Below are positions 48,238-63,259 of a DNA stretch of 64,000 nt, piece by piece. A program made the position numbers and the translations under genes. How positions within the stretch are numbered: position 1 is the first letter of the stretch; the number at the start of each line of letters is the position of its first letter. This DNA comes from Escherichia coli. GTDB lineage: Bacteria; Pseudomonadota; Gammaproteobacteria; Enterobacterales; Enterobacteriaceae. The notes under the pieces are model-generated. The model did not search any database. It had not been told where the DNA came from and saw only the letters and a list, made by a program, of their open reading frames with translations. The stretch lies in assembly GCF_011045215.1 (NCBI RefSeq), contig NZ_CP049201.1; one strand, 5' to 3'.

Positions 48238-49482
48238 ATGGCGTTACCTGCGGAAAGCCTGATTGCGTATACCCTGGAAAAAATGAAGCACCGTATGACC
48301 ACCGGAGCCCGGAAGGAGGAGGGGCGAATACGCAGCGGACTGTTGTTCACCGGCAATGTGCACGATGCCATTCCGCGTCGTCTGTTGCTGGATACGCGTC
48401 TTTCACCGCTGGACAAGATGGCATGGATGATGATCCGGCTGTATGCGCAGAATAATGAGGGGGCCATTTTTCCTACTTACGATGAACTGCAACTGCAGCT
48501 GGCATCGCCGGGAAAGGGAAAAGCTTCCAGAGAAACCGTCAGCCGGGTATTGCTGATGTTGCGGATCACGGGCTGGCTGAGCCTGTGTAAACGGGTACGT
48601 GATGATAAAGGCCGGGTTCGGGGAAACATTTACGCCCAGCATGACGAGCCCCTGACGTTCTGCGATGCAGAGGCGATGGATCCGCGTTATCTGGATATAG
48701 TGGCAGAAGCCTGTATGAGCCGGAACCGGACCATCAGTCAGACGGCACGGGATATTCTTTGTGAAATAAAAAATGATCCGGGAATGCGTCACTATCACAG
48801 CCATATCAGTCAGCTGGAAGCCCGGATAGGAAGTGCCCAGACACCGGGGCAGATGGCTGCCCGTCAGCGGGTGACAGAGGACAGAATGCGGCCGGGTTCG
48901 GAAACCGAACCAGTGGTGAGAACACTGAGTTCGGCACCGGAAAAGCTGAGTTCGGAAACCGAACCGGGTAAAAAAATGGGGCAAAAAAGACAGAGTTCGG
49001 ATCCCGAACCATCAGGAAAATCAGCAGGTTATCACAGAGTCCGGGAACCGAACCATTACGTACGTAATATCACACACAGTGTGATTAAAAACACGTACGT
49101 ACTGCCGGCGTCGCTGACGGGGCAAATCAGGGAGGAAGATGCCATCATGCTGACTAGTCAGTTGCAGGCGTTGCCGGAAGCGCTGGCACAGGGGGTGCTG
49201 GAAAGCCTGTCAGGGATGCTGGGCAGTCAGTCACTGCAGAACCCGGTGGGCTGGCTGCTTGCAGTGCTGAAGCGTGCCCGGGAGGGAAATTTTTATCCAC
49301 CGAAACAGAAACAGCGCGTCGCTGCATCAGCCACCATACAGGCGGGAGCGGGAGGGCGCACCACTTCGCAGCCTGTTGTCACCCGGAAACGTACAGAACC
49401 CATTTCAGCAGAACGTCTGAGTGGCATTGTGGCAGGACTACGGGCCTCCCTTCGCAACCGTCCTGCGATGAGAGCCCGGTGA
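48238..49482 (+). CDS. Winged-helix Rep-like protein (STY4528-family 'pathogenicity island replication protein' type)
   Basis: SD GAGGTG before the ATG at 48238. It has a wHTH-like segment SRETVSRVLLMLRITGWLS. Its position upstream of the tandem array is the same as in SPI-7-like islands. The family name is from memory. Confidence 0.65.
   Translation: MALPAESLIAYTLEKMKHRMTTGARKEEGRIRSGLLFTGNVHDAIPRRLLLDTRLSPLDKMAWMMIRLYAQNNEGAIFPTYDELQLQLASPGKGKASRETVSRVLLMLRITGWLSLCKRVRDDKGRVRGNIYAQHDEPLTFCDAEAMDPRYLDIVAEACMSRNRTISQTARDILCEIKNDPGMRHYHSHISQLEARIGSAQTPGQMAARQRVTEDRMRPGSETEPVVRTLSSAPEKLSSETEPGKKMGQKRQSSDPEPSGKSAGYHRVREPNHYVRNITHSVIKNTYVLPASLTGQIREEDAIMLTSQLQALPEALAQGVLESLSGMLGSQSLQNPVGWLLAVLKRAREGNFYPPKQKQRVAASATIQAGAGGRTTSQPVVTRKRTEPISAERLSGIVAGLRASLRNRPAMRAR
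48895..49053. repeat. Cluster of GTTCGG-N3-CCGAAC palindromes inside the Rep-like gene
   Basis: GGTTCGGAAACCGAACC 48895-48911; half-site GTTCGG 48929-48934; GTTCGGAAACCGAAC 48950-48964; GTTCGGATCCCGAAC 48995-49009; GTCCGGGAACCGAAC 49039-49053. Confidence 0.8.
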
Positions 49483-49506
49483 TGGCGTTGTGATTCACGT
49501 TCACAG

Positions 49507-50112
49507 AGAGCAAAAATCAACCAGTGCTGCCAGTGGCAGCATAGAGCAAAAATTAGCCAGTGCTGCTCGGGGCAGCATAGAGCAAAAATTAGCCAGTGCT
49601 GCCCGGGGCAGCATAGAGCAAAAATCAGCCAGTGCTGCCCGGGGCAGCATAGAGCAAAAATCAGCCAGTGCTGCCCGGAGCAGCATAGAGCAAAAATTAG
49701 CCAGTGCTGCCCGGGGCAGCATAGAGCAAAAATTAAGCAGTGCTGCCCGGGGCAGCATAGAGCAAAAATTAGCCAGTGCTGCCCGGGGCAGCATAGAGCA
49801 AAAATCAGCCAGTGCTGCCCGGGGCAGCATAGAGCAAAAATTAAGCAGTGCTGCCCGGGGCAGCATAGAGCAAAAATTAGCCAGTGCTGCCCGGGGCAGC
49901 ATAGAGCAAAAATCAGCCAGTGCTGCCCGGGGCAGCATAGAGCAAAAATCAGCCAGTACTGCCCGGAGCAGCATAGAGGAAAAATTAGTCAGTGCTGCCC
50001 GGGGCAGCATAGAGCAAAAATTAGGCAGTGCAGCCCGGGACAGCATAGAGTGAAAATTAGCCAGTGCTGCCAGTGTCACCAAAGAACAAAAATTATGCTG
50101 CGTCAGCAGCAT
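49507..50112. repeat. Tandem array of a 36-bp unit (about 15 well-conserved and 2 degenerate copies), each with an internal palindrome; candidate iteron/oriV or centromere-like array
   Basis: The unit is AGAGCAAAAAT(T/C)AGCCAGTGCTGCCCGGGGCAGCAT, starting at 49507 and then every 36 bp through 50047, with a shortened copy at 50083. TGCTGCCC-G-GGGCAGCA forms 8-bp inverted arms. The array lies 25 nt after the Rep-like stop codon. Confidence 0.95.
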
Positions 50113-50354
50113 GGAAGGCGGCGGCACTGAATATCCTGAAACATCTGACGGTAAACCGCCGAAGCCCGGCGTCAGCCGGAAACGTCCTGACAGGATGCAG
50201 TGCTCTCCCCGGCCCTGCCAGACCCTGTTTGTTTCAGGAAAAAGCCTGTGTCACATAAAAGAACCGGAGTACAGAGGTAAAACAGAATACTTGCCGCCGT
50301 TTTTTCCGTCAGTATACTTTTTCGTGCTGAAATTCTGGCTAAGGAAAGATTTTT

Positions 50355-51101
50355 ATGACAAATATTAAAATTCTGGCATTCAGTGTGCTGGCAGCCTTTT
50401 CAGTGGGTGCCGCGCATGCGGAAAGTACGCTGACAGTGGGGGCCGGGGTCGGCGTTGTTGAACAATCCTATAAAGGGTATGACGCAAAGGCTTACCTGAT
50501 CCCTGCGGTTTCTTATGACAGTGATTATTTCTGGTTCCGGGGGCTGGGCGGGGGCTTTTATCTGTGGAATGACAGTGCGGATACGCTTTCTGTGACGGCA
50601 TACTGGGCACCGATGTATTTTAAACCGGATGACAGTAATGACCATCAGTTACGTCTGCTGGATGAGCGTAAAAGCACACTGATGGCGGGGATATCCTGGT
50701 CTCATAATACGCCATATGGTTTCCTGCGCACGGGGCTTGCTGCGGATGTACTGGATAACAGTAATGGTGTTGTTGGTGATGTGGCGTGGTTATACCGTTA
50801 TGTGAATGGTGGATTCACCCTGACACCGGGGATTGGTGTGGAGTGGAGCAGCCAGAAACAGAACGACTATTATTATGGCGTATCGCGTCGTGAATCTGCG
50901 CGCAGCGGTCTGGAGCGGTATAAAGCGGATAATGGCTGGTCACCTTACCTTGAAATCAGTGCAAATTACACCTTTGCCGGCAACTGGGGGATCTACGGAA
51001 CCGCACGTTACAGCCGCTTATCTGATGAAGTTAAAAACTCTCCCATGGTGGATAAGTCATGGGATGGACTGTTTTCCACCGGGATCACTTATCGTTTCTG
51101 A
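50355..51101 (+). CDS. mipA: MipA/OmpV-family outer-membrane (MltA-interacting) protein
   Basis: 248 aa with the signal peptide MTNIKILAFSVLAAFSVGAAHA, an alternating beta-strand pattern and a C-terminal ..GITYRF. Confidence 0.8.
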   Translation: MTNIKILAFSVLAAFSVGAAHAESTLTVGAGVGVVEQSYKGYDAKAYLIPAVSYDSDYFWFRGLGGGFYLWNDSADTLSVTAYWAPMYFKPDDSNDHQLRLLDERKSTLMAGISWSHNTPYGFLRTGLAADVLDNSNGVVGDVAWLYRYVNGGFTLTPGIGVEWSSQKQNDYYYGVSRRESARSGLERYKADNGWSPYLEISANYTFAGNWGIYGTARYSRLSDEVKNSPMVDKSWDGLFSTGITYRF

Positions 51102-51265: not shown

Positions 51266-51964
51266 ATGAGTGAAGATAAACTGAACCAGAAAGATGTCCG
51301 GGCCGGCGCATTGCAGTCCTCGCTGTCCATTCTGTTACATACCCATTATGCCATTCGTCTTTGGGAAGGACGTTTACCCGGACGAAAGCCCGGGAATATG
51401 CCCTGGATTATGAGTATGCCGCAGGCAATAAAACGTGCCGGGGGGATTTACCGGGATTCCCTGGCGGATAATCCCTATGCCGATGAAGCGATGTGGAAGG
51501 TGGAAAATGCAATTAATGCTGCCAGTGAAAAAGTACATGCTCTGGTTGGCTGGCTGGAGCAGGTTCTGTGTGCCGTGCCGGCGAATATTACCATGACTGA
51601 TGTTGTATCCCGTTCTCCATTAAATATTGGGGTTTACAGTAGTTCTCCGCTGGGGTATCGCTGTGTCTGGCTGCTTGTGGGATATGATCAGATGGCTCTG
51701 AAAGCGTTTCAGGCATCCCACTTTGGCCTGATTTCCCGGCAGAAACGGGACGAGTTACTCTCACATGGCGGGTATCTTATCCGGAAAATTTACGGCATTT
51801 TAAGGGGTTATTATGCCATCCCTGTCACACGACAGGATCTTGAAGAAAAAACACCGGCGGGAGAACAGGCGATGGCACGCCTGGGGCTCCCTGATGCTGA
51901 GATTATGAATGGGCAGTTGCGATCATCATTTTCTCCTCCGCTGAAGAAAAAGAAGAATAAATAG
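51266..51964 (+). CDS. ICE-associated protein (PFL_4669-family-like), upstream of topB
   Basis: 232-aa ORF with a Lys-rich tail (PPLKKKKNK). The family assignment is from memory of PFGI-1-class ICE gene order. Confidence 0.55.
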   Translation: MSEDKLNQKDVRAGALQSSLSILLHTHYAIRLWEGRLPGRKPGNMPWIMSMPQAIKRAGGIYRDSLADNPYADEAMWKVENAINAASEKVHALVGWLEQVLCAVPANITMTDVVSRSPLNIGVYSSSPLGYRCVWLLVGYDQMALKAFQASHFGLISRQKRDELLSHGGYLIRKIYGILRGYYAIPVTRQDLEEKTPAGEQAMARLGLPDAEIMNGQLRSSFSPPLKKKKNK

Positions 51965-51974
51965 TGGGGGATAA

Positions 51975-53984
51975 ATGCAACTTTACTTGTGTGAAAAACC
52001 GTCACAGGCGCGGGATATTGCCCGGGTGCTGGGGCTCAGCGGGCGGGGAGAGGGCTGTATTGAAGGTGATACTGTCACGGTCACCTGGGCTGTGGGGCAT
52101 CTGCTGGAGCTGGCCGCCCCGGAAGCGTACGGGGAACAGTTCGGGGTTCCCTGGCGTATGGAGTCGCTTCCCGTTCTGCCTGAAAAGTGGCAGATGACGG
52201 TTAAACCGCAGACGAAATCCCAGTTTACGGTGATCAGCCGCCTGCTGAAGCGTGCGTCTGAAGTGGTGATTGCCACGGATGCGGACAGGGAAGGAGAAGT
52301 CATCGCCCGGGAACTGCTGACGTACTGCCGGTACCGGGGGCCAGTCCGTCGGCTGTGGCTGTCTGCCCTGGATGAGGCCAGCGTCCGGGAGGCGCTGGCA
52401 AATATTCTGCCCGGTGAGCAGACGGCCCGTCTGTATGATGCCGGCCTGGCCCGTGGTCAGGCTGACTGGCTGATCGGGATGAACCTGACGCGTCTGTATA
52501 CCCTTAAGGCCCGGGCGTCGGGGATCCAGGATGTGTTGTCCGTCGGAAGGGTACAGACGCCGACACTTGCCATGGTGGTCAGACGGGATCAGGAGATTGC
52601 CGGTTTTGTGCCACGCCCCTGGTGGCAGGTGTTTGTCGGGCTGGAGAAAGACGGGATCCGGTTCCGGGTCGTCTGGGTGGCGGCAGAGCAGTACTGCGAT
52701 GAAGAGAAACGGTGCGTGAACGTTCAGGCGGCCCGGGCTGTTCTTCAGTTGTGTCAGCAGACACCGTCAGCGGTGGTGCATGAGGTGACCCGGAAGTGTG
52801 AAAAAACACCGGCTCCGCTCTGTTTTTCGCTGGGTACACTGCAGGAGGCCTGCTCCCGGAAATTTGGTATGGGAGCGCAGACTGTGCTGAATATCGCGCA
52901 GTCCCTGTATGAGACGCACAAAGCCACGACGTATCCCCGGACGGACTGTGGCTATCTGCCTGAATCCATGCAACAGGAAAGCCGGGAGGTACTGGCGGCG
53001 ATGGCGCGTTCAGACCCGGCCCTGACGCCGGTTCTGGCACAGCTCGATCCCGGTTTTGTTTCACGTATCTGGAATGACAAAAAGATTACGGCACACCATG
53101 CCATTATTCCGACCCGGCAGGTCTTTGATATCAGGGCACTGAGTGAAGATGAACTGAAGGTGTATCAGCTTATCCGCCAGCATTATCTGGCCCAGTTTCT
53201 GCCCCTGCAGGAGTCTGATATTACTGATGCAACACTGACACTCGGCGGGCAACGGTTCAGGGCCCGCGGGAAAGTGAATGTGGTGACGGGCTGGCGAAGC
53301 CTGTTTTCCGGGGAGGCTGCAGAAGTTGCTGAAGGTGAAGATGAACAGACGACGGAAATGGCGTTGCCGGCGCTTGAACGGGGAGAGCACTGCCGGATTA
53401 GCGGTTCAGAACTGAAGGACCGGATGACGTCACCTCCGGCACCTTTTACGGAAGGAACCCTGATTGCCGCCATGAAGAATGCTGCCAGTCAGGTCAGCGA
53501 CCCGAAGCTGAAAAAAGTGCTGCGGGAGAATGCCGGTCTGGGGACGGAGGCCACGCGGGCCGGTGTGCTGGAGGTGTTATTTGCCCGGCAGTATCTGGAG
53601 AAGAGCGGGAAGCATATCCGGTCAACGCAACGGGGCAGGGAACTGACGGCCGCCCTGCCGGAAGCCCTGACCAGTCCGGGCATGACGGCGCTGTGGGAGC
53701 AGGCTCTGGATGATATTGCACAGGGCAGAATGTCACTGGATACCTTTATGGGCAGACAGCAGCAGTGGGTGCGTCATCTGGTCTCATCCGGGCGGGAACA
53801 GCCCTTCAGTATGACGGTTCCGGTGACGCCGCCGTGCCCGCTTTGTCAGGGGCCGACCCGGCAGCGAAAGGGAAAGCACGGACTGTTCCGGAGCTGTCAG
53901 CGGTATCCTGAGTGTAAGGGCGTGGTGAACACGCAGAAAAAGGCCGGGCGACGAAAAAACGCGGGAAAAACTAAAACGGAGTAA
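51975..53984 (+). CDS. topB: DNA topoisomerase III (type IA), island-encoded
   Basis: 669 aa with a Toprim N-terminus (MQLYLCEKPSQARDIARVLG, DADREGE), the active-site region TYPRTD and a C-terminal zinc ribbon CPLCQG..CQRYPECKG. Confidence 0.9.
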   Translation: MQLYLCEKPSQARDIARVLGLSGRGEGCIEGDTVTVTWAVGHLLELAAPEAYGEQFGVPWRMESLPVLPEKWQMTVKPQTKSQFTVISRLLKRASEVVIATDADREGEVIARELLTYCRYRGPVRRLWLSALDEASVREALANILPGEQTARLYDAGLARGQADWLIGMNLTRLYTLKARASGIQDVLSVGRVQTPTLAMVVRRDQEIAGFVPRPWWQVFVGLEKDGIRFRVVWVAAEQYCDEEKRCVNVQAARAVLQLCQQTPSAVVHEVTRKCEKTPAPLCFSLGTLQEACSRKFGMGAQTVLNIAQSLYETHKATTYPRTDCGYLPESMQQESREVLAAMARSDPALTPVLAQLDPGFVSRIWNDKKITAHHAIIPTRQVFDIRALSEDELKVYQLIRQHYLAQFLPLQESDITDATLTLGGQRFRARGKVNVVTGWRSLFSGEAAEVAEGEDEQTTEMALPALERGEHCRISGSELKDRMTSPPAPFTEGTLIAAMKNAASQVSDPKLKKVLRENAGLGTEATRAGVLEVLFARQYLEKSGKHIRSTQRGRELTAALPEALTSPGMTALWEQALDDIAQGRMSLDTFMGRQQQWVRHLVSSGREQPFSMTVPVTPPCPLCQGPTRQRKGKHGLFRSCQRYPECKGVVNTQKKAGRRKNAGKTKTE

Positions 53985-54310: not shown

Positions 54311-54404
54311 GCCAGCCAATGTTTCAGCAGTCTGAGAGAAACGCCTTCGGGTGACTGCCAGCCAACGTTTCACCGGCCTGAGAGAAACACCTTCGGGTGG
54401 CCGG
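54311..54404 (+). ncRNA. Tandem (2 x 46 nt) hairpin/pseudoknot element with compensatory stem changes; a STAXI-motif-like leader
   Basis: Unit 1 stem GCAGTC(54327-32)/GACTGC(54353-58). Unit 2 stem CCGGCC(54373-78)/GGCCGG(54399-404). The loop TGAGAGAAAC(G/A)CCTTCGGGT is conserved and contains a C(G/A)CC-UUCG-GGUG mini-hairpin. GTTTC 5' of each stem can pair with GAAAC in the loop to form a pseudoknot. Confidence 0.5.
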
Positions 54405-54614: not shown

Positions 54615-55070
54615 ATGTCTGTAAATACTGCTAAAACTGAATACTTTAATCTGACCCTGAAAGGTCTGGGGTATCTCAGTAATGTACGTCAGGTGAATCA
54701 CCAGAACGGCTCGTTTCTCAGCTGTGTGGTGAATGCGCTGAGCGGACCCACGGACAGCCCGTCCTACGTCCGTTTTGATGTCACGGTTGCCGGTAAAGAG
54801 GCGACTGCCCTGATTGCCCGCTGCCAGAAGGCGGTGGATGAAGATCGCAAGGTGCTGCTTGGCTTCACGCTGAGCAACCTGTCCACTGACATCTTCACTC
54901 TGAACAAGGGAGAGCATGCCGGTGAACAACGCGTCAGCCTGAAGGCCCGCCTGATCAAGGTGGACTGGATCAAGATAGGCCAGGAGATGGTTTACAAGGC
55001 TGAAAAATCAGACTCCCAGCCGCCGCAAAACGGCACCATGCAACAGCAATACGCAGAAAACTCTTTCTGA
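54615..55070 (+). CDS. DUF3577-like protein (STY4534-family 'ICE replication protein' type)
   Basis: 151 aa starting MSVNTAKTEYFNLTLKGLGYLSNVRQV.... It sits between topB and ssb, as in SPI-7-like islands. The family name is from memory. Confidence 0.65.
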   Translation: MSVNTAKTEYFNLTLKGLGYLSNVRQVNHQNGSFLSCVVNALSGPTDSPSYVRFDVTVAGKEATALIARCQKAVDEDRKVLLGFTLSNLSTDIFTLNKGEHAGEQRVSLKARLIKVDWIKIGQEMVYKAEKSDSQPPQNGTMQQQYAENSF

Positions 55071-60343: not shown

Positions 60344-60945
60344 TGCCGGCACCAGTGATAACCGCAGCCCTGCTGGTCAGCCCGGTGCTGATGGCCTGTC
60401 TGATGCTCTGCCTGCTGACCGTGTTGCTGATGCTCATTCTGCGGGAATGTCGACGGAAACGGGGAGGTGTCCGGAACCGTCGCCATCAGCGTTACCGTGC
60501 CACCGCCGCCCGGGTACTGGGCAGACTGAAGACGCTGCCGGGGGATGCGCATCGTCTGAAGTATCTGCGCAAAATCAACCCGTATGTCTTCGAAGAATTG
60601 CTGTTACTGGCCCTGAAGCAGCAGGGGATGACGGTTATCCACAATCCCTGCTACAGCGGTGATGGTGGTCTGGACGGACAGGTGATGATTAACGGTGAGC
60701 GCTGGCTGATACAGGCAAAGCGCTACGGACGGACCATCCGCCCGGCACATATTGATGCCTTCGGGGAACTGCTGCGCCGGGAGGGCTGCCGGGGGTTTTT
60801 TATTCATACCGGCCGTACGGGGCCGGCCAGCCGGGCCAGGCTGACACTGTGGCCGGATATCGAACTGGTCAGCGGGCAGCGTCTGCTGAAACTGCTGAAC
60901 GGAACATTACTGACAGATGAACTTACCAGAGGGGAGCGGAGATGA
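60340..60945 (+). CDS. Membrane-anchored restriction-endonuclease-like (Mrr_cat) protein
   Basis: N-terminal TM segment (VITAALLVSPVLMACLMLCLLTVLLMLIL), then FEELLLLALKQQG..GDGGLDGQV..LIQAKRY, a D-(x)n-QxK PD-(D/E)XK core. Confidence 0.65.
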   Translation: MMPAPVITAALLVSPVLMACLMLCLLTVLLMLILRECRRKRGGVRNRRHQRYRATAARVLGRLKTLPGDAHRLKYLRKINPYVFEELLLLALKQQGMTVIHNPCYSGDGGLDGQVMINGERWLIQAKRYGRTIRPAHIDAFGELLRREGCRGFFIHTGRTGPASRARLTLWPDIELVSGQRLLKLLNGTLLTDELTRGERR

Positions 60946-61454
60946 TGACGGTAAAACGGATGTTTATGCTTTTATTCAGAGTGGTGATTGTCTGGCCGGC
61001 CATGCTGACGGGATGCCTGATGATGCTGTATTTCGCAGAGGTTGCCAGCGGTGGTGTGACAGGGCTGGCGCAGCGTTATGAGGCGGAGTCTGCCCGCTGG
61101 CGTGATGCGCCGGAAGGGGCGGTGATGATGCTCCGGTGTCCGTCGCGTCCCTTTGTGGTGCCGGTAACAACCGGGGAGTGGCGTGCACTGTCCGCCACTG
61201 ATGCAGAATGCCTCCGGGCACCGCGCTCTTTCAGGCAGGCTGCGGAGGCAGATTTTCAGTCACTGCACATACTGGCGCTGACACTGCTGCTGGCATCCGT
61301 GGTTCTGGAAGGCATTTCGGCCGGCATGTTGCGCCGGAAAACCGCATCCGTACCGGTATCACCACACTGTGGATGTGGCCGGGGCCGTGGTGCGGTTGCA
61401 CACTGGCCTGAGCGTGACAGTGATGCGACATCACAGAAGGGAGGCCCGGTATGA
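60942..61454 (+). CDS. Hypothetical membrane protein
   Basis: 170 aa with an ATGA overlap with the upstream gene and two hydrophobic segments. Confidence 0.5.
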   Translation: MMTVKRMFMLLFRVVIVWPAMLTGCLMMLYFAEVASGGVTGLAQRYEAESARWRDAPEGAVMMLRCPSRPFVVPVTTGEWRALSATDAECLRAPRSFRQAAEADFQSLHILALTLLLASVVLEGISAGMLRRKTASVPVSPHCGCGRGRGAVAHWPERDSDATSQKGGPV

Positions 61455-61496
61455 CCGTTTCACTGCTGGCCCGTGTGCAGGCAAATGTTCCTTGCA

Positions 61497-61615
61497 AAAT
61501 GGCATCTGAATCGATCGCAGTTTGGCATTCGAATCGATCATGATTTGGCATCCATCTCCGATCACAGTTTGGCATCACAATCGATCACGATTTGGCATAC
61601 TTCCGATCATTGATT
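61497..61615 (+). repeat. Five ~23-bp phased subterminal repeats of the IS21-family left end
   Basis: TGGCAT occurs at 61500, 61523, 61546, 61570 and 61593, each followed 7-10 nt later by (C)GATC. Multiple terminal repeats are a hallmark of IS21-family ends. Confidence 0.7.
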
Positions 61616-61693
61616 GGAATTCGCCAGTCACTCCGGGAATTAACTCTTTTCACCACAGTCTCCATTGCCGTGTTTAAACCAGTGGAGACGTCA

Positions 61694-63259
61694 ATGTCCA
61701 AAAAGAGAAAATCCAGGAGCACTATGGAAACTTGTTTTAAGATCCTTCAGCTCAAGTTCGATAAGAAGCTGACTAACCGTTGTATCGGACTGACGTTACA
61801 CATCAGCGCCTCAACCGTTTTTGAGGTTCTTGCCCGCTTCAAAGCCTCTTCTCTGTCATGGCCATTACCTGCTGATATATCCCATGACACGCTGGAGAAA
61901 CTCATTTTCCCGCCCAAAGACACCTCTGCGTCAGAGCTTGTTATGCCTGACATGCTGTACTTCGATACGGAAATGAGAAAACCTGGCGTGACGCGCCAAC
62001 TGTTGTGGATGGAATACAAGGCACAGGCGGGTGACAAAGCGATGGGATACTCACACTTCTGCCGTTGCTACCGGAAGTGGAAAAAAACGCGACGCCTCTC
62101 CATGCGACAGGAGCATCGTGCTGGCGAAAAGCTCTTTATCGACTTCTGTGGTCCTACGGTCCCTGTTATTAATCCGGACACCGGAGAGATACGCCGCGTG
62201 GCAATCTTCGTGGCTGTAATGGGGGCGTCCAACTATACCTATGTTGAAGCGTGCGAAGGTCAGGACATGATGTCATGGTTAAATGCCCACAGCCGTTGCC
62301 TGACCTTCCTGGGCGGCGTACCGAAGCTGCTCATCCCCGATAACCTCAGAAGCGCAGTGAAAAAAGCCGATCGCTATGAGCCTGTCATCAACGACAGTTA
62401 TCAGGCGCTGGCTGAGCACTATGGCACGGTTATTATCCCGGCCCGCCCGCGCAAACCTAAAGATAAACCAAAAGCAGAAAACGGCGTCCTCATCGTCGAG
62501 CGATGGCTTCTTGCCCGCATCCGTAATGAAACCTTCCACACGCTCAGGGCGCTGAATGCACGCCTTCGGGAGTTGCTGACGGACATGAATAACCGACCAA
62601 TGAAGGGATACGGTAATCAAACCCGCGCAGAACGCTTCCGCATGCTGGATGCACCAGCACTCTCTCCGCTGCCTCTGGAGCCTTATGAATACACGGAATA
62701 CAAAGCCGTGAAGGTTGGCCCTGACTACCACGTTGAATATGCCCGTCACTGGTACTCCGTTCCACACGAACTGGTCGGTCAGCGTCTGTCACTGAAGGTG
62801 GGGCAGTCGGTGGTACAGCTCTGGCACAAGGGGCAGTGTGTGGCGCAACATCCGCGCAGCACACATGAATATAAACACACAACCAATCCGCTTCACATGC
62901 CAGAACGCCACCGGCGGCATGGGACATGGACACCGGAACGCCTTATCGAGCAGGGAAACCGTACAGGTCCGTCCACAGGCCGGGTGGTTGAATCCATGCT
63001 GAAAGCCAAACCCCATCCGGAGCTGGCTTACCGTGCAGTCCTGGGTCTGCTGGCACTTCAGAAAAAATACGGCCCGGAACGGCTGGAAAAGGCCTGTTAC
63101 GTTGCCCTGCACTATAACGCCCCGGACAGACGCTTTATCGACAATCTGCTGCGTCATCATCGGGATAACGTTGAGCTTCCGTTATCCCGCCAGGGCGAAC
63201 AACATCCGGCATATGCTTCAGAGCATGAAAACCTGCGTGGTCCTGGCTACTACCACTGA
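61694..63259 (+). CDS. istA: IS21-family transposase IstA
   Basis: The start is placed at the ATG at 61694 (SD GGAG). It has an N-terminal HTH and DDE residues in FIDFCGP, LIPDNLRSAV and KPKAENGV. Confidence 0.9.
   Translation: MSKKRKSRSTMETCFKILQLKFDKKLTNRCIGLTLHISASTVFEVLARFKASSLSWPLPADISHDTLEKLIFPPKDTSASELVMPDMLYFDTEMRKPGVTRQLLWMEYKAQAGDKAMGYSHFCRCYRKWKKTRRLSMRQEHRAGEKLFIDFCGPTVPVINPDTGEIRRVAIFVAVMGASNYTYVEACEGQDMMSWLNAHSRCLTFLGGVPKLLIPDNLRSAVKKADRYEPVINDSYQALAEHYGTVIIPARPRKPKDKPKAENGVLIVERWLLARIRNETFHTLRALNARLRELLTDMNNRPMKGYGNQTRAERFRMLDAPALSPLPLEPYEYTEYKAVKVGPDYHVEYARHWYSVPHELVGQRLSLKVGQSVVQLWHKGQCVAQHPRSTHEYKHTTNPLHMPERHRRHGTWTPERLIEQGNRTGPSTGRVVESMLKAKPHPELAYRAVLGLLALQKKYGPERLEKACYVALHYNAPDRRFIDNLLRHHRDNVELPLSRQGEQHPAYASEHENLRGPGYYH

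What the first reader, a model, noticed from the sequence alone, without database searches (positions are those of the whole stretch)
49507..50112. 36-bp x ~16 tandem array of palindrome-containing units immediately downstream of the Rep-like gene (candidate ICE oriV iterons or centromere)
**Structure.** Unit starts fall exactly every 36 bp from 49507 to 50047, with a shortened 17th copy at 50083. The consensus is AGAGCAAAAAT(T/C)AGCCAG-TGCTGCCC-G-GGGCAGCA-T. Each unit therefore carries an A5 tract and an 8+1+8 inverted repeat.

**Variation.**
- It is confined to 2-3 positions (TTAGCC, TCAGCC, TTAAGC).
- The edge units (49507, 50047, 50083) are degenerate.

**Position.** The array begins 25 nt after the stop of a winged-helix Rep-like protein, and it sits in an island that also encodes ParA, ParB-like, DnaB, TopB and SSB proteins.

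**Known parallel.** As I recall, the related element pKLC102 has an oriV made of 16 direct repeats, though of a different unit length (57 bp). This should be verified.

**Spurious ORFs.** Because 36 nt equals 12 codons, the array generates long ORFs on both strands: 49490-50053 with (GSIEQKLASAAR)n, and 49501-50127.

**Candidate functions.**
- Rep-binding iterons for the excised circular form.
- A ParB or other centromere.
- A hairpin or cruciform array in the transferred single strand.
Basis: partly seen in the sequence, partly recalled or inferred. Interest (0 to 1): 0.75.

Follow-up and report, generated by a model that had tools for sequence, protein, structure and literature searches.

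The report
Palindrome array: likely ParB-clamp loading platform
A real 16-copy, 36-bp tandem array just after the 'replication protein' gene of an SPI-7/pKLC102-type conjugative island is the local version of a repeat long assumed to be the island's replication origin, but comparison across 200 related loci suggests it is instead the loading site for the island's ParB-like CTP clamp (BisD) that switches on transfer genes.

Summary
Window 49507-50095 holds 16.4 copies of a 36-bp unit with no indels. Each unit is an A-tract plus a 17-bp palindrome, and the array starts 24 nt after the stop of an STY4528-family 'Rep' gene.

- **Conservation.** The array is family-wide: 36 bp x2-20 or ~105-109 bp in Enterobacterales, 57 bp x16.6 in a pKLC102-type plasmid, and 132 bp x2-3 in ICEclc-type elements. 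It always begins just after rep.
- **Symmetry.** Palindrome arms covary, and different symmetric variants coexist in one array.
- **Against Rep iterons.** Rep's recognition helix is invariant while the palindrome changes class. Rep's likelier targets are invariant TTCGG-N3-CCGAA palindromes inside its own ORF (197 inside, 1 outside). No DnaA box or AT-rich element flanks the array.
- **For a BisD loading site.** In ICEclc-type loci the experimentally proven BisD loading site bisS-1 lies in this same rep-to-PFL_4669 interval and is itself the last unit of a short tandem array.

My best reading (about 0.6) is a multimerised bisS-like loading platform for the island's BisD-like ParB-CTP clamp. 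No binding was tested here. The array is not coding, not CRISPR and not a dispersed repeat. It is a new member of a known kind, and its main value is as a testable reinterpretation of the family's 'oriV'.

The parts
49507..50095 (.). Tandem array, 16.4 x 36 bp. Each unit is AGAGC-AAAAA-TTAGCCAG plus the 17-bp palindrome TGCTGCCC-G-GGGCAGCA. This is the proposed multimerised bisS-like loading site.
   Evidence: TRF. Unit table. Palindrome census. Covariation. Positional homology to ICEclc bisS-1.
50083..50118 (.). Degenerate terminal 17th unit, with an A-tract and a variant palindrome ATGCTGCGTCAGCAGCAT at 50095-50112.
   Evidence: 19 of 36 mismatches. One search lists the stem-loop.
44125..45804 (+). 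ParB-family protein of the PFGI-1/ICE class, a BisD homologue and the proposed reader of the array. It has GxxR (G91-R94) and ENxxR (E133-R137) CTP-pocket motifs, an HTH at 164-198 with the recognition helix from about residue 182, a long disordered linker and a conserved C-terminal domain.
   Evidence: TIGR03764, 379 bits against a cutoff of 143.75. Alignment A2. 44-46% identity to the proteins encoded beside exact bisS sites. AF2 helices 166-175 and 182-205 with pLDDT 79-89.
46519..47097 (+). DUF2857 protein, a BisC homologue (FlhC-like partner of BisD).
   Evidence: PF11198, E = 3.9e-66. The eLife paper states that BisC is DUF2857.
48238..49482 (+). STY4528-family 'pathogenicity island replication protein', with an N-terminal winged HTH. 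The array starts 24 nt after its stop codon.
   Evidence: NF040582, 405 bits against a cutoff of 130. Secondary structure. Invariant recognition helix.
48895..49010 (.). Three TTCGG-N3-CCGAA palindromes (48895, 48949, 48994) inside the linker-coding part of rep. They are the candidate Rep binding sites, equivalent to ICEclc 'bisS-3', which BisD does not bind.
   Evidence: 5 matches against 0.09 expected. (197 inside rep against 1 outside, in 80 of 85 loci)..
50355..51101 (+). MipA/OmpV cargo gene, inserted between the array and PFL_4669 only in the E. coli/Salmonella clade.
   Evidence: Pfam PF06629. Synteny table.
51266..51964 (+). PFL_4669/AcaB-family ICE protein. It marks the downstream boundary of the conserved interval that holds the array.
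   Evidence: TIGR03761, 229 bits. Synteny.
42596..44128 (+). Island-encoded DnaB-type helicase, immediately upstream of the BisD-like gene.
   Evidence: Pfam DnaB_C and DnaB. Annotated 'SPI-7-type island replicative DNA helicase' in relatives.
51975..53984 (+). Topoisomerase III, the first gene of the long co-directional block (ssb, pil, T4SS) downstream of the array.
   Evidence: Pfam. Annotation of the relative.

Best explanation
The array is a multimerised set of parS-like ('bisS-like') loading sites for the island's own ParB-family CTPase, the BisD homologue encoded 3.7 kb upstream (44125-45804).

Proposed mechanism:
1. When the island's transfer-competence programme produces BisD-like and BisC-like (DUF2857) proteins, BisD dimers bind the 17-bp palindromes through their HTH domains.
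2. Site binding triggers CTP-dependent closure into sliding clamps.
3. The clamps leave the array and travel mainly downstream, with transcription, over PFL_4669, topB, ssb, the pil genes and the T4SS genes.
4. There they meet BisC-bound promoters and activate them. Together with the island's ParA they may also position the excised circle.
5. Sixteen adjacent sites would raise the loading flux.

Unit number expands and contracts by slippage and recombination. The arms are kept symmetric either by selection for dimer binding or by hairpin-templated correction.

Shown in the literature, for ICEclc only: BisD forms foci on a cloned bisS, ChIP-seq peaks lie at bisS, spreading covers ~50 kb, bisS stimulates CTP hydrolysis, and BisD with BisC is required for promoter activation.

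Shown here: homology of the proteins, positional and architectural homology of the array, and the behaviour of the candidate reader helices.

Inferred: that this element's BisD-like protein binds these particular palindromes. In this reading the neighbouring 'Rep' protein recognises the invariant TTCGG-N3-CCGAA palindromes inside its own gene, not the array.
For: 1. **Positional homology.** In ICEclc-type loci fetched with the exact verified bisS sequence, the order is BisD - BisC - Rep-like (with TTCGG palindromes inside) - bisS - PFL_4669 - ... - bisS - TopB. This is the same interval as the array.
2. **Architectural homology.** That bisS-1 is itself the last unit of a 2-3 copy, ~132-bp tandem repeat starting just after rep (28 of 39 loci have 2-3 copies). 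It includes symmetric variants such as GAACTATCCCC.GGGGATAGTTC.
3. **Experimental anchor.** BisD foci on cloned bisS, ChIP-seq maxima at bisS, and CTPase stimulation by 40-bp bisS DNA. BisD does not bind the TTCGGAtTCCGAA-type palindrome (PMC12409273).
4. **Same geometry.** Both are odd-length palindromes around one central base, extending to 10-11-bp arms in many loci.
TIGR03764, invariant GxxR and ENxxR motifs, linker and C-terminal domain, and a BisC homologue.
6. **Reader helices.** Rep's helix is invariant across palindrome classes. The ParB-like recognition helix changes (S183T, R187Q, E189H) in all 5 loci with the most divergent palindrome, TGATTAGAGTCTAATCA.
7. **Relocation in Pantoea.** In two Pantoea loci the 36-bp palindromic repeat has moved into the ParB-like gene's linker and is absent after rep.
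8. **Topology.** The array sits at the head of a long co-directional block of transfer genes, as in ICEclc.
9. **No strand bias.** Mismatches show no strand-specific wobble bias, which is compatible with duplex recognition.
Against: - No binding was tested for this element.
- The palindrome sequence differs from ICEclc bisS. Only about 6 of 11 half-site positions match, and part of that match falls at positions that are variable.
- The helix-to-site relation is not a clean code. ICEclc-type BisD (SHISRM[A/N]D) resembles Xenorhabdus proteins whose sites are quite different. The pKLC102-type helix is SHISKMLD with class-A-like sites. L077 is an exception.
- L051 combines an L039-type rep and array with an L042-type ParB-like N-terminus.
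- The count of clade-specific switches is no higher than in the irrelevant TopB control.
- Several sequence variants coexist in one array, which is unusual for a sequence-specific HTH site.
- The conserved A-tract half of the unit is unexplained.
- After rearrangements the array stays glued to the rep stop codon rather than to bisD.
- pKLC102-type elements exist as plasmid records, so an origin must lie somewhere in this module.
Confidence: 0.6

Rival explanations
1. Iteron-type vegetative origin. Rep (STY4528 family) binds the repeats, melts adjacent DNA and recruits the island's DnaB to replicate the excised circle. This is the classical reading for pKLC102, PFGI-1 and ICEHin1056.
For: - The array abuts the rep stop codon across the whole family.
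- The module encodes DnaB, TopB and SSB.
- Published sequence-based proposals place oriV here (PMC2647930; PMC2258188).
- 35 plasmid records carry this gene, some with no other typed replicon.
- The invariant A-tract half of the unit could be read by the invariant Rep helix.
Against: - Rep's recognition helix is identical in loci whose palindromes differ completely.
- Multiple palindrome variants occur within one array.
- The unit is 36 bp (about 3.4 helical turns) and palindromic, unlike 17-22-bp directional iterons.
- There is no DnaA box within ~2 kb and no AT-rich unwinding element.
- Array orientation relative to rep is flipped in L043, L058 and L066.
- An invariant palindrome set inside rep is a better match for Rep.
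- None of the oriV proposals I could read (PFGI-1, ICEHin1056) reports a replication assay. I could not read the primary pKLC102 paper.
Confidence: 0.15
2. Structure-specific element. The palindromes act as hairpins in single-stranded island DNA (the transferred strand or a rolling-circle intermediate), or as cruciforms, for example for priming or for recognition by a structure-specific protein. What is selected is self-complementarity, not sequence.
For: - Arm covariation is strong. 83.8% of cells are paired against 71.7% in shuffles (0 of 500), and double-sided changes number 116 against 56.
- At least 7 inner dinucleotide types occur, each with its complement.
- Variants coexist in one array.
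- The innermost pair is dispensable, as expected for a 7-bp stem with a 3-nt loop.
- Two-unit ssDNA folds are far more stable than shuffles, z = -4.5.
Against: - There is no excess of G-T wobble on either strand (20 G-T, 30 A-C, 38 other).
- Arms of 7-9 bp are short for cruciform extrusion (general knowledge).
- The homologous ICEclc palindrome works as duplex DNA, since 40-bp dsDNA stimulates BisD.
- Symmetric drift can also arise from template-switch mutation at quasi-palindromes without selection (general knowledge).
- There is no Rfam match.
Confidence: 0.1
3. Binding platform for another island protein (PFL_4669/AcaB-like, or the BisC-like protein at the A-tract box), or for a host nucleoid protein. 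The array would act as a regulatory or architectural element for the downstream promoter.
For: - The array lies upstream of PFL_4669 in most loci.
- The A-tract box G-R-Y-Y-AAAAA is conserved in all enterobacterial classes, and the BisD model does not explain it.
- In ICEclc a BisDC-activated promoter (PinR) lies in this neighbourhood.
Against: - The A-tract is absent from the Pantoea in-gene repeats, the pKLC102-type units and the ICEclc-type units.
- MipA is inserted between the array and PFL_4669 in this very window, and insertions elsewhere also separate them.
- No promoter-like sites were found in the array.
Confidence: 0.08
4. A translated repeat protein, (GSIEQKLASAAR)n on the + strand or the Cys-rich repeat on the - strand that RefSeq calls 'saposin'.
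For: - Long ORFs exist on both strands.
- PGAP annotates them in relatives.
- In Pantoea a related repeat is translated as part of the ParB-like linker.
Against: - Four of six frames are open, so ORFs are automatic.
- The annotated strand differs between close relatives, and the ORF is split in L001.
- Related arrays have periods that are not multiples of 3 (97, 106, 109, 119, 158, 250).
- Conservation follows an A-tract and complementary arms, not codons.
- There is no family match above cutoff.
Confidence: 0.02

Closest known systems
ICEclc bisS sites and the BisD-BisC system (Antar et al., NAR 2025, PMC12409273)
   Same: - The ICE family and gene order are the same (BisD - BisC - Rep-like - site - PFL_4669 - TopB).
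- The site is an odd-length palindrome around one central base.
- It lies just after the rep-like gene and is part of a short tandem repeat.
- The cognate ParB-like protein has GxxR and ENxxR motifs, a long linker and a C-terminal domain.
- A long co-directional transfer-gene block lies downstream.
   Different: - The palindrome sequence is different (TGCTGCCC-G-GGGCAGCA against GAGCTATCCCC-n-GGGGATAGCTC).
- The array has 16 copies at 36-bp spacing, against 2-3 copies at ~132 bp plus one further site before topB.
- Each unit here carries an A-tract.
- No second site occurs elsewhere in the 64-kb window.
- Binding has not been tested here.
pKLC102 'oriV' (16 direct repeats of 57 bp) and the PFGI-1 putative oriV (4 x 46-bp repeats with a 21-bp inverted repeat, plus 4 x 23-bp palindromes)
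   Same: - The locus is homologous, immediately after the STY4528-family gene.
- The repeats are tandem units with embedded palindromes of the same class (GTGTTGCCA-C-TGGCAACAC occurs in the pKLC102-type array).
- The PFGI-1 23-bp palindrome CTGAGTTCGGAATCCGAACTCAGT is the TTCGG element found inside rep here.
   Different: - The unit is 36 bp, against 57 or 46 bp.
- An A-tract is present.
- The origin function of those repeats was proposed from sequence in the papers I could read, and my analysis suggests the same reinterpretation applies to them.
- The PFGI-1 paper stated that no Rep is encoded, whereas the palindromes lie inside a Rep-like ORF.
F-plasmid sopC centromere (12 x 43-bp tandem repeats, each with an inverted repeat bound by the ParB-family protein SopB; general knowledge)
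   Same: It is a tandem array of units that each carry one short palindrome for a ParB-family HTH dimer. Many sites act as one loading or nucleation region, and copy number is dispensable in part.
   Different: - sopC lies directly after sopB in a sopAB operon, and its repeats are sequence-uniform.
- Here the ParB-like gene is 3.7 kb away, the partner is a transcription co-activator (BisC), and the arms vary symmetrically.
RK2 KorB-OB sites (a ParB-family CTP clamp that regulates promoters at a distance; cited in PMC12409273)
   Same: A ParB-type clamp loads at palindromic operators and acts on promoters at a distance with a partner protein.
   Different: KorB represses, its 12 OB sites are dispersed singly, and its range is hundreds of bp.
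Phage lambda O protein and ori-lambda (general knowledge)
   Same: This is relevant to the neighbouring rep gene. It has an N-terminal winged-helix initiator-like protein whose gene carries a cluster of palindromic repeats in the linker-coding segment.
   Different: It applies to the TTCGG palindromes, not to the 36-bp array. No adjacent AT-rich segment is evident, and initiator function is untested.

Membership tests
bisS-type loading site of a BisD (ParB-CTP clamp) system | Palindromic duplex site with two half-sites around a central base. | tested here: met
   8+1+8 palindrome in 12 of 16 units. 10-11-bp arms in many relatives. Covariation.
bisS-type loading site of a BisD (ParB-CTP clamp) system | Located in the regulatory module of an ICEclc/pKLC102-family ICE, downstream of bisD-bisC and the rep-like gene. 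| tested here: met
   The array occupies the same rep-to-PFL_4669 interval as exact bisS-1 in 39 ICEclc-type loci.
bisS-type loading site of a BisD (ParB-CTP clamp) system | A cognate BisD homologue (ParB N-domain with GxxR and ENxxR, HTH, linker, C-terminal activator domain) and a BisC (DUF2857) are encoded in cis. | tested here: met
   TIGR03764 at 379 bits. Motifs invariant in A2. PF11198. 44-46% identity to the ICEclc-type proteins. The fold search was inconclusive.
bisS-type loading site of a BisD (ParB-CTP clamp) system | Sequence match to the verified bisS, GAGCTATCCCCnGGGGATAGCTC. | tested here: not met
   The sequence is different. The only bisS-like half-site in the window (GGCTATCC-C-GGATAGCC at 47777) lies in an accessory gene and occurs in 5 of 85 loci.
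   There is a perfect switch in the Photorhabdus class (5 of 5 loci), but exceptions exist (L051, L077, ICEclc and pKLC102 types), and the control protein TopB shows as many clade switches.
bisS-type loading site of a BisD (ParB-CTP clamp) system | BisD binds the site, forms foci or spreads from it, and the site stimulates CTP hydrolysis. | not testable with these tools
   Needs EMSA, ChIP-seq, microscopy and a CTPase assay.
Iteron-type plasmid origin (oriV) | Direct repeats adjacent to the rep gene. | tested here: met
   The array starts 24 nt after the rep stop.
Iteron-type plasmid origin (oriV) | Repeat sequence is specific to, and co-varies with, the initiator's DNA-binding helix. | tested here: not met
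   The Rep helix ASRETVSRVLLMLRITGWLSLCKRV is invariant across palindrome classes A, B and C.
Iteron-type plasmid origin (oriV) | An adjacent AT-rich unwinding element, and usually DnaA boxes. | tested here: not met
   The nearest TTWTNCACA matches are at 42714 and 51990. The array is 48-59% GC, and the only dip (35%) is at the mipA start.
Iteron-type plasmid origin (oriV) | Supports autonomous replication with Rep in trans and exerts incompatibility. | not testable with these tools
   Needs a cloning and replication assay.
Type Ia plasmid centromere (sopC/parS-like) | A cluster of palindromic ParB-family sites working with a ParA ATPase encoded on the element. | tested here: inconclusive
   The architecture matches. 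A ParA gene lies next to the integrase, about 5.3 kb upstream of the ParB-like gene, in the closest relative. The ParB-like protein carries the BisD-type extra domain, and the partition role is left open even for ICEclc.
CRISPR array | Repeats separated by unique spacers of similar length. | tested here: not met
   Units are head-to-tail with no spacers.
Dispersed REP/BIME-type extragenic palindromes | Many copies scattered through the host genome. | tested here: not met
   The unit was found in 3 of 5426 E. coli genomes, only at this locus, and only in the array within the window.
Tandem-repeat protein | A conserved reading frame and strand across relatives. | tested here: not met
   See the coding rival.

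The most novel reading that the evidence does not exclude
The repeats annotated for two decades as the 'oriV' of the pKLC102/PAPI-1/SPI-7/PFGI-1 island family would not be origins at all. They would be high-capacity loading arrays for a ParB-CTP transcription clamp.

The arms would be kept perfectly symmetric while drifting in sequence. That would imply either that the clamp is loaded by site symmetry or shape rather than by base sequence, or that the array has a second life as hairpins in the transferred single strand.

The real origin would be the palindrome cluster inside the rep gene, arranged as in lambda O.
Probability: 0.2. Interest if true: 0.7.

Novelty: new member of a known kind. 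Interest (0 to 1): 0.5.

Why it matters
This ICE family (SPI-7, PAPI-1, pKLC102, ICEclc and SGI4-like elements) spreads virulence, resistance and catabolic genes, yet how its members replicate and switch on transfer outside Pseudomonas is largely unknown.

If the array is the BisD loading platform:
- A feature repeatedly labelled 'oriV' in genome papers needs relabelling.
- The enterobacterial elements gain a concrete, clonable cis-site for studying ParB-CTP clamps that activate genes over tens of kilobases.
- Copy-number variation, measured at 8.6 to 20.5 units in E. coli relatives and possibly about 4 to 26 if the length differences between relatives are all due to the array, becomes a candidate tuning knob for transfer frequency.
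- The RefSeq 'saposin' and hypothetical proteins over the array are flagged as probable annotation artefacts.

Tried and rejected
- **Structure of Rep.** The AF2 model was too poor to search (pLDDT 49).
- **PDB sequence searches.** Searches with Rep and with the ParB-like protein were empty or noise.
- **Structure of the ParB-like protein.** The AF2 model was good only around the HTH. The Foldseek search of the PDB was non-significant, with Caulobacter ParB-parS 6T1F only at E of about 4.
- **Pfam.** Nothing was found for either protein, even at E = 10.
- **Primary pKLC102 paper.** It is not held, and 'STY4528' and 'SPI-7 oriV' literature searches were uninformative. I verified the 57-bp array from sequence instead.
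- **Candidate true bisS at 47777.** I rejected it because it is confined to an accessory Ead-like gene in 5 of 85 loci.
- **Counting clade-specific residue switches per protein.** The count is not discriminating, because TopB scores as high as the ParB-like protein. Only the position of the switches in the recognition helix carries weight.
- **RNA element.** No Rfam family matched, there is no wobble bias, and no promoter or + strand terminator was found in or next to the array.
- **Dispersed repeat.** Rejected.
- **'18-23 places per genome'.** I attribute this to offset self-alignments of the array. One search agrees: it found the unit in only three genomes, and every listed hit lies over the array ORF.
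- **Helical-phase regularity of unit lengths** (36, 46 and 57 differ by about one turn). I noted it but did not pursue it, because the ~105-109-bp arrays break the pattern.
Full report
**1. What is there**

TRF reports a single strong array at 49507-50095. It has period 36, 16.4 copies, 92% matches, no indels and score 968. Cutting it in register gives 16 units with 0-7 differences from the consensus AGAGCAAAAATTAGCCAGTGCTGCCCGGGGCAGCAT. Variation sits mostly at unit positions 12 and 14-15, and the edge units are degenerate. A 17th unit at 50083 differs at 19 of 36 positions but keeps an A-tract and carries a different palindrome.

Each unit is an A5 tract, 8 nt, and then the palindrome TGCTGCCC-G-GGGCAGCA. 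Unit 1 carries a symmetric variant, TGCTGCCA-G-TGGCAGCA. Twelve of the 17 perfect 7+3+7 palindromes in the 64-kb window lie in the array, and the motif occurs nowhere else. The array begins 24 nt after the stop of the upstream ORF.

**2. Context**

The surrounding genes are the backbone of an SPI-7/pKLC102/ICEclc-family integrative conjugative element:
- DnaB-type helicase
- a ParB-family protein of the PFGI-1 class (TIGR03764, 379 bits)
- DUF2786
- DUF2857
- a small ORF and an Ead-like ORF
- an STY4528-family 'pathogenicity island replication protein' (NF040582, 405 bits)
- the array
- MipA
- a PFL_4669/AcaB-family protein
- topoisomerase III

In the closest E. coli relative the island continues downstream with ssb, pil and T4SS genes, all on the same strand. 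The integrase and ParA lie about 10 kb upstream. The exact unit occurs in 3 of 5426 complete E. coli genomes and only at this locus, so it is not a dispersed repeat. Rfam has nothing.

**3. The array is a family-wide feature**

- *E. coli and Salmonella relatives* carry a 36-bp array at the same place, with 8.6, 9.5, 11.4, 14.4, 14.5 and 20.5 copies. Length differences between query and subject are mostly multiples of 36, which suggests a range of about 4-26 copies. This range is an inference.
- *Eighty loci across Enterobacterales*, fetched with a Rep alignment, were scanned. About 47 have a TRF-detectable array starting 4-300 bp after rep, with period 36 or about 97-109, 119, 158, 250 or 324. 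Sixty-two have perfect palindromes of the same design within 1.3 kb.
- *A pKLC102-type P. aeruginosa plasmid* has a 57-bp x16.6 array starting about 47 bp after the homologous gene.
- *The PFGI-1 paper* describes 4 x 46-bp repeats with a 21-bp inverted repeat in the same place and calls the region a putative oriV on sequence grounds. The ICEHin1056 paper does likewise.

**4. The palindrome evolves symmetrically**

I took 102 distinct units from TRF-defined 36-bp arrays and anchored them only on the A-tract, so palindromes were not pre-selected. On these units:
- 83.8% of cells pair, against 71.7% in shuffles (0 of 500 shuffles reach the observed value).
- Double-sided changes number 116, against 56 in shuffles (0 of 500).
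- Slid controls give 23-61% pairing.
- The pairs T22-A32 and G23-C31 are almost invariant, and four other pairs switch between complementary types.

At least seven inner dinucleotide types occur, each with its complement. Different variants also coexist in one array, in L002, L005, L027, L069, L072 and the pKLC102-type array. Mismatches show no G-T bias on either strand (20 G-T, 30 A-C, 38 other). Nothing therefore points to a strand-specific RNA or ssDNA hairpin, although ssDNA hairpins would be stable.

**5. Which protein reads it?**

*Rep.* Its winged-helix recognition segment, ASRETVSRVLLMLRITGWLSLCKRV, is identical in all enterobacterial loci. That holds whether the array palindrome is TGYTG... 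(50 loci), TGATTAGAGTCTAATCA (6 Photorhabdus loci) or GTGTGCCCGTGGCACAC (6 Xenorhabdus loci). An invariant reader is expected to have an invariant site, and one exists. TTCGG-N3-CCGAA palindromes occur 197 times inside rep ORFs and once outside, in 80 of 85 loci, always in the linker-coding segment. There are three copies in this window, at 48895, 48949 and 48994. The arrangement recalls lambda O and ori-lambda (general knowledge). No DnaA box lies within about 2 kb of the array and no AT-rich element flanks it.

*The ParB-like protein.* It has a textbook HTH at residues 164-198, with AF2 helices at 166-175 and 182-205 and pLDDT 79-89. In all five Photorhabdus loci the first two turns of the recognition helix read TSISQMHN instead of S[ST]ISRMED.

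This correlation is suggestive, not decisive:
- TopB shows as many clade-specific switches.
- The Xenorhabdus class tracks only 3 of 4 loci.
- L051 is a recombinant, with an L039-type rep and array and an L042-type ParB-like N-terminus.
- The ICEclc-type and pKLC102-type helices do not form a simple code with their sites.

**6. The experimental anchor**

Antar et al. (NAR 2025) showed that ICEclc BisD is a ParB-like CTPase and reported the following:
- It forms foci on two cloned bisS palindromes, GAGCTATCCCCnGGGGATAGCTC.
- It peaks there in ChIP-seq and spreads about 50 kb into the element.
- Its CTP hydrolysis is stimulated by 40-bp bisS DNA.
- It is required, with BisC (DUF2857), for activating transfer promoters.
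- It does not bind CTTCGGAtTCCGAAG in orf96323.

I fetched ICEclc-type loci by scanning metagenome contigs for the exact bisS and mapped the window's proteins onto them. The order is BisD (44-46% identical over residues 9-297) - BisC - Rep-like (31-35% identical, with TTCGG palindromes inside) - bisS - PFL_4669 - ... - bisS - TopB. The verified loading site therefore lies in the same interval as the array.

It is also not solitary. In 39 loci the interval holds 2 copies (21 loci), 3 copies (7 loci) or 1 copy (6 loci) of bisS-type palindromes at about 132-bp spacing. TRF gives period 132 x2.1 in L099, and symmetric variants occur.

The window protein has the GxxR and ENxxR CTP-pocket motifs, the long linker and the conserved C-terminal domain described for BisD. 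In two Pantoea loci the 36-bp palindromic repeat is absent after rep. It sits instead, in frame, inside the ParB-like linker.

**7. Conclusion on mechanism**

The most economical reading is that the array is the enterobacterial, multimerised counterpart of bisS-1. It would be a loading platform for the BisD-like clamp, which then slides downstream over the co-directional transfer genes. The neighbouring Rep would use the palindromes inside its own gene. I put this at about 0.6.

What is shown is homology and position. What is borrowed from ICEclc is the biochemistry. What is inferred is that this protein binds these sites.

Weak points are the different site sequence, the untidy helix-to-site relation, the coexistence of variants, the unexplained A-tract, and the array's tight linkage to the rep stop codon.

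The rivals are:
- a Rep-iteron oriV (0.15), which is still possible because pKLC102-type elements exist as plasmid records
- a structure-specific ssDNA or cruciform element (0.1)
- a platform for another protein (0.08)
- a repeat protein (0.02), which is contradicted by inconsistent annotated strands, a split ORF, and related arrays whose periods are not multiples of three

**8. Novelty**

Homologous arrays were described in 2004-2009 as putative origins, and bisS was described in 2025. I did not find the two connected in the papers I could read.

The 36-bp array is a new member of that known kind. The useful product here is the testable reinterpretation, plus a warning that RefSeq's 'saposin' and hypothetical proteins over the array are probably artefacts. 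Interest is moderate: a specialist would find the link worth an experiment, but the element is neither unprecedented nor, as yet, mechanistically surprising.

Noticed in passing
window 48895-48911, 48949-48965, 48994-49010 (inside the rep ORF 48238-49482): There are three TTCGG-N3-CCGAA palindromes in the linker-coding part of the Rep-like gene, where they encode an SSE(T/S)EL motif. Across 85 loci there are 197 copies inside rep and 1 outside, with invariant arms. This is the same element as the PFGI-1 '23-bp palindrome' and ICEclc 'bisS-3'. They may be the real Rep sites or origin, arranged like lambda O and ori-lambda.
   Followed up: partly
window 47777-47793 (inside the Ead/Ea22-like ORF 47613-48134): The perfect palindrome GGCTATCC-C-GGATAGCC shares the GCTATCC half-site core with the verified ICEclc bisS. 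It is present in only 5 of 85 loci and always in this accessory gene, so it is probably not the family's BisD site. The resemblance remains unexplained.
   Followed up: yes
window 61490-61623: About six 23-bp repeats of the form TTTGGCAT-N4-8-(ATC)GATCA, rich in GATC (Dam) sites, lie between ORF 60942-61454 and the start of a 555-aa ORF (61592-63259). By synteny with the closest relative that ORF is probably the TraD coupling protein. The repeats could be a regulatory site or an oriT-related element.
   Followed up: no
window 54311-54399: A 46-bp x1.9 direct repeat lies in the gap after topB. Each copy holds a CACC-TTCG-GGTG stem-loop. It sits upstream of the ORF at 54615-55070, which by synteny with the closest relative is probably the 'STY4534 family ICE replication protein' gene.
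   Followed up: no
L001 4529-5273, L002 4401-4748, L003 4426-5196, L004 4489-4947 (RefSeq E. coli records): PGAP annotates the array as 'saposin' or as a hypothetical protein, on different strands in different strains, and split in two in one strain. These are probably spurious CDSs generated by the stop-free repeat.
   Followed up: yes
L045 and L049 (Pantoea), 2531-2657: A 36-bp x3.5 repeat carrying TGTTGCCA(C/G)TGGCAACA lies in frame inside the linker of the ParB-like gene (...VASGNTSEPNSTVATGNTSEP...). No array follows rep, and the rep-to-PFL_4669 gap is only about 110 bp. The cis-site appears to have moved into the gene of its presumed reader.
   Followed up: partly
L085-L164 (ICEclc-type metagenome loci), e.g. 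L099 8132-8411: The published ICEclc bisS-1 is the last unit of a 2-3 copy, ~132-bp tandem repeat just after the rep-like gene. The upstream copies are imperfect or are symmetric variants. The sections of the BisD paper that I read speak of two bisS sites only.
   Followed up: partly
L051 against L039 and L042 (Xenorhabdus): This is a modular recombinant. The rep and array are 95% L039-like, but the ParB-like N-terminus is 91% L042-like. Exchange therefore occurs between the bisD and rep-array modules.
   Followed up: partly
L043, L058, L066: The array is inverted relative to rep, with a T-tract after the palindrome instead of an A-tract before it. In L043 about 0.9 kb is inserted within the array, leaving one palindrome at +30 and two at +936 and +972.
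   Followed up: partly
window 50355-51101: A MipA/OmpV outer-membrane scaffold gene is inserted between the array and PFL_4669, only in the E. coli/Salmonella clade of these elements.
   Followed up: partly
L005 (NZ_JBQPOM010000022.1, labelled Vagococcus sp.): A contig attributed to a Gram-positive Vagococcus carries this enterobacterial island module with a Rep 97% identical to the window's. Contamination or mislabelling is likely.
   Followed up: no
window 42127-42168: A 21-bp x2 direct repeat (ATGAGAACATCGCAACATATG) lies about 430 bp upstream of the dnaB-type gene.
   Followed up: no
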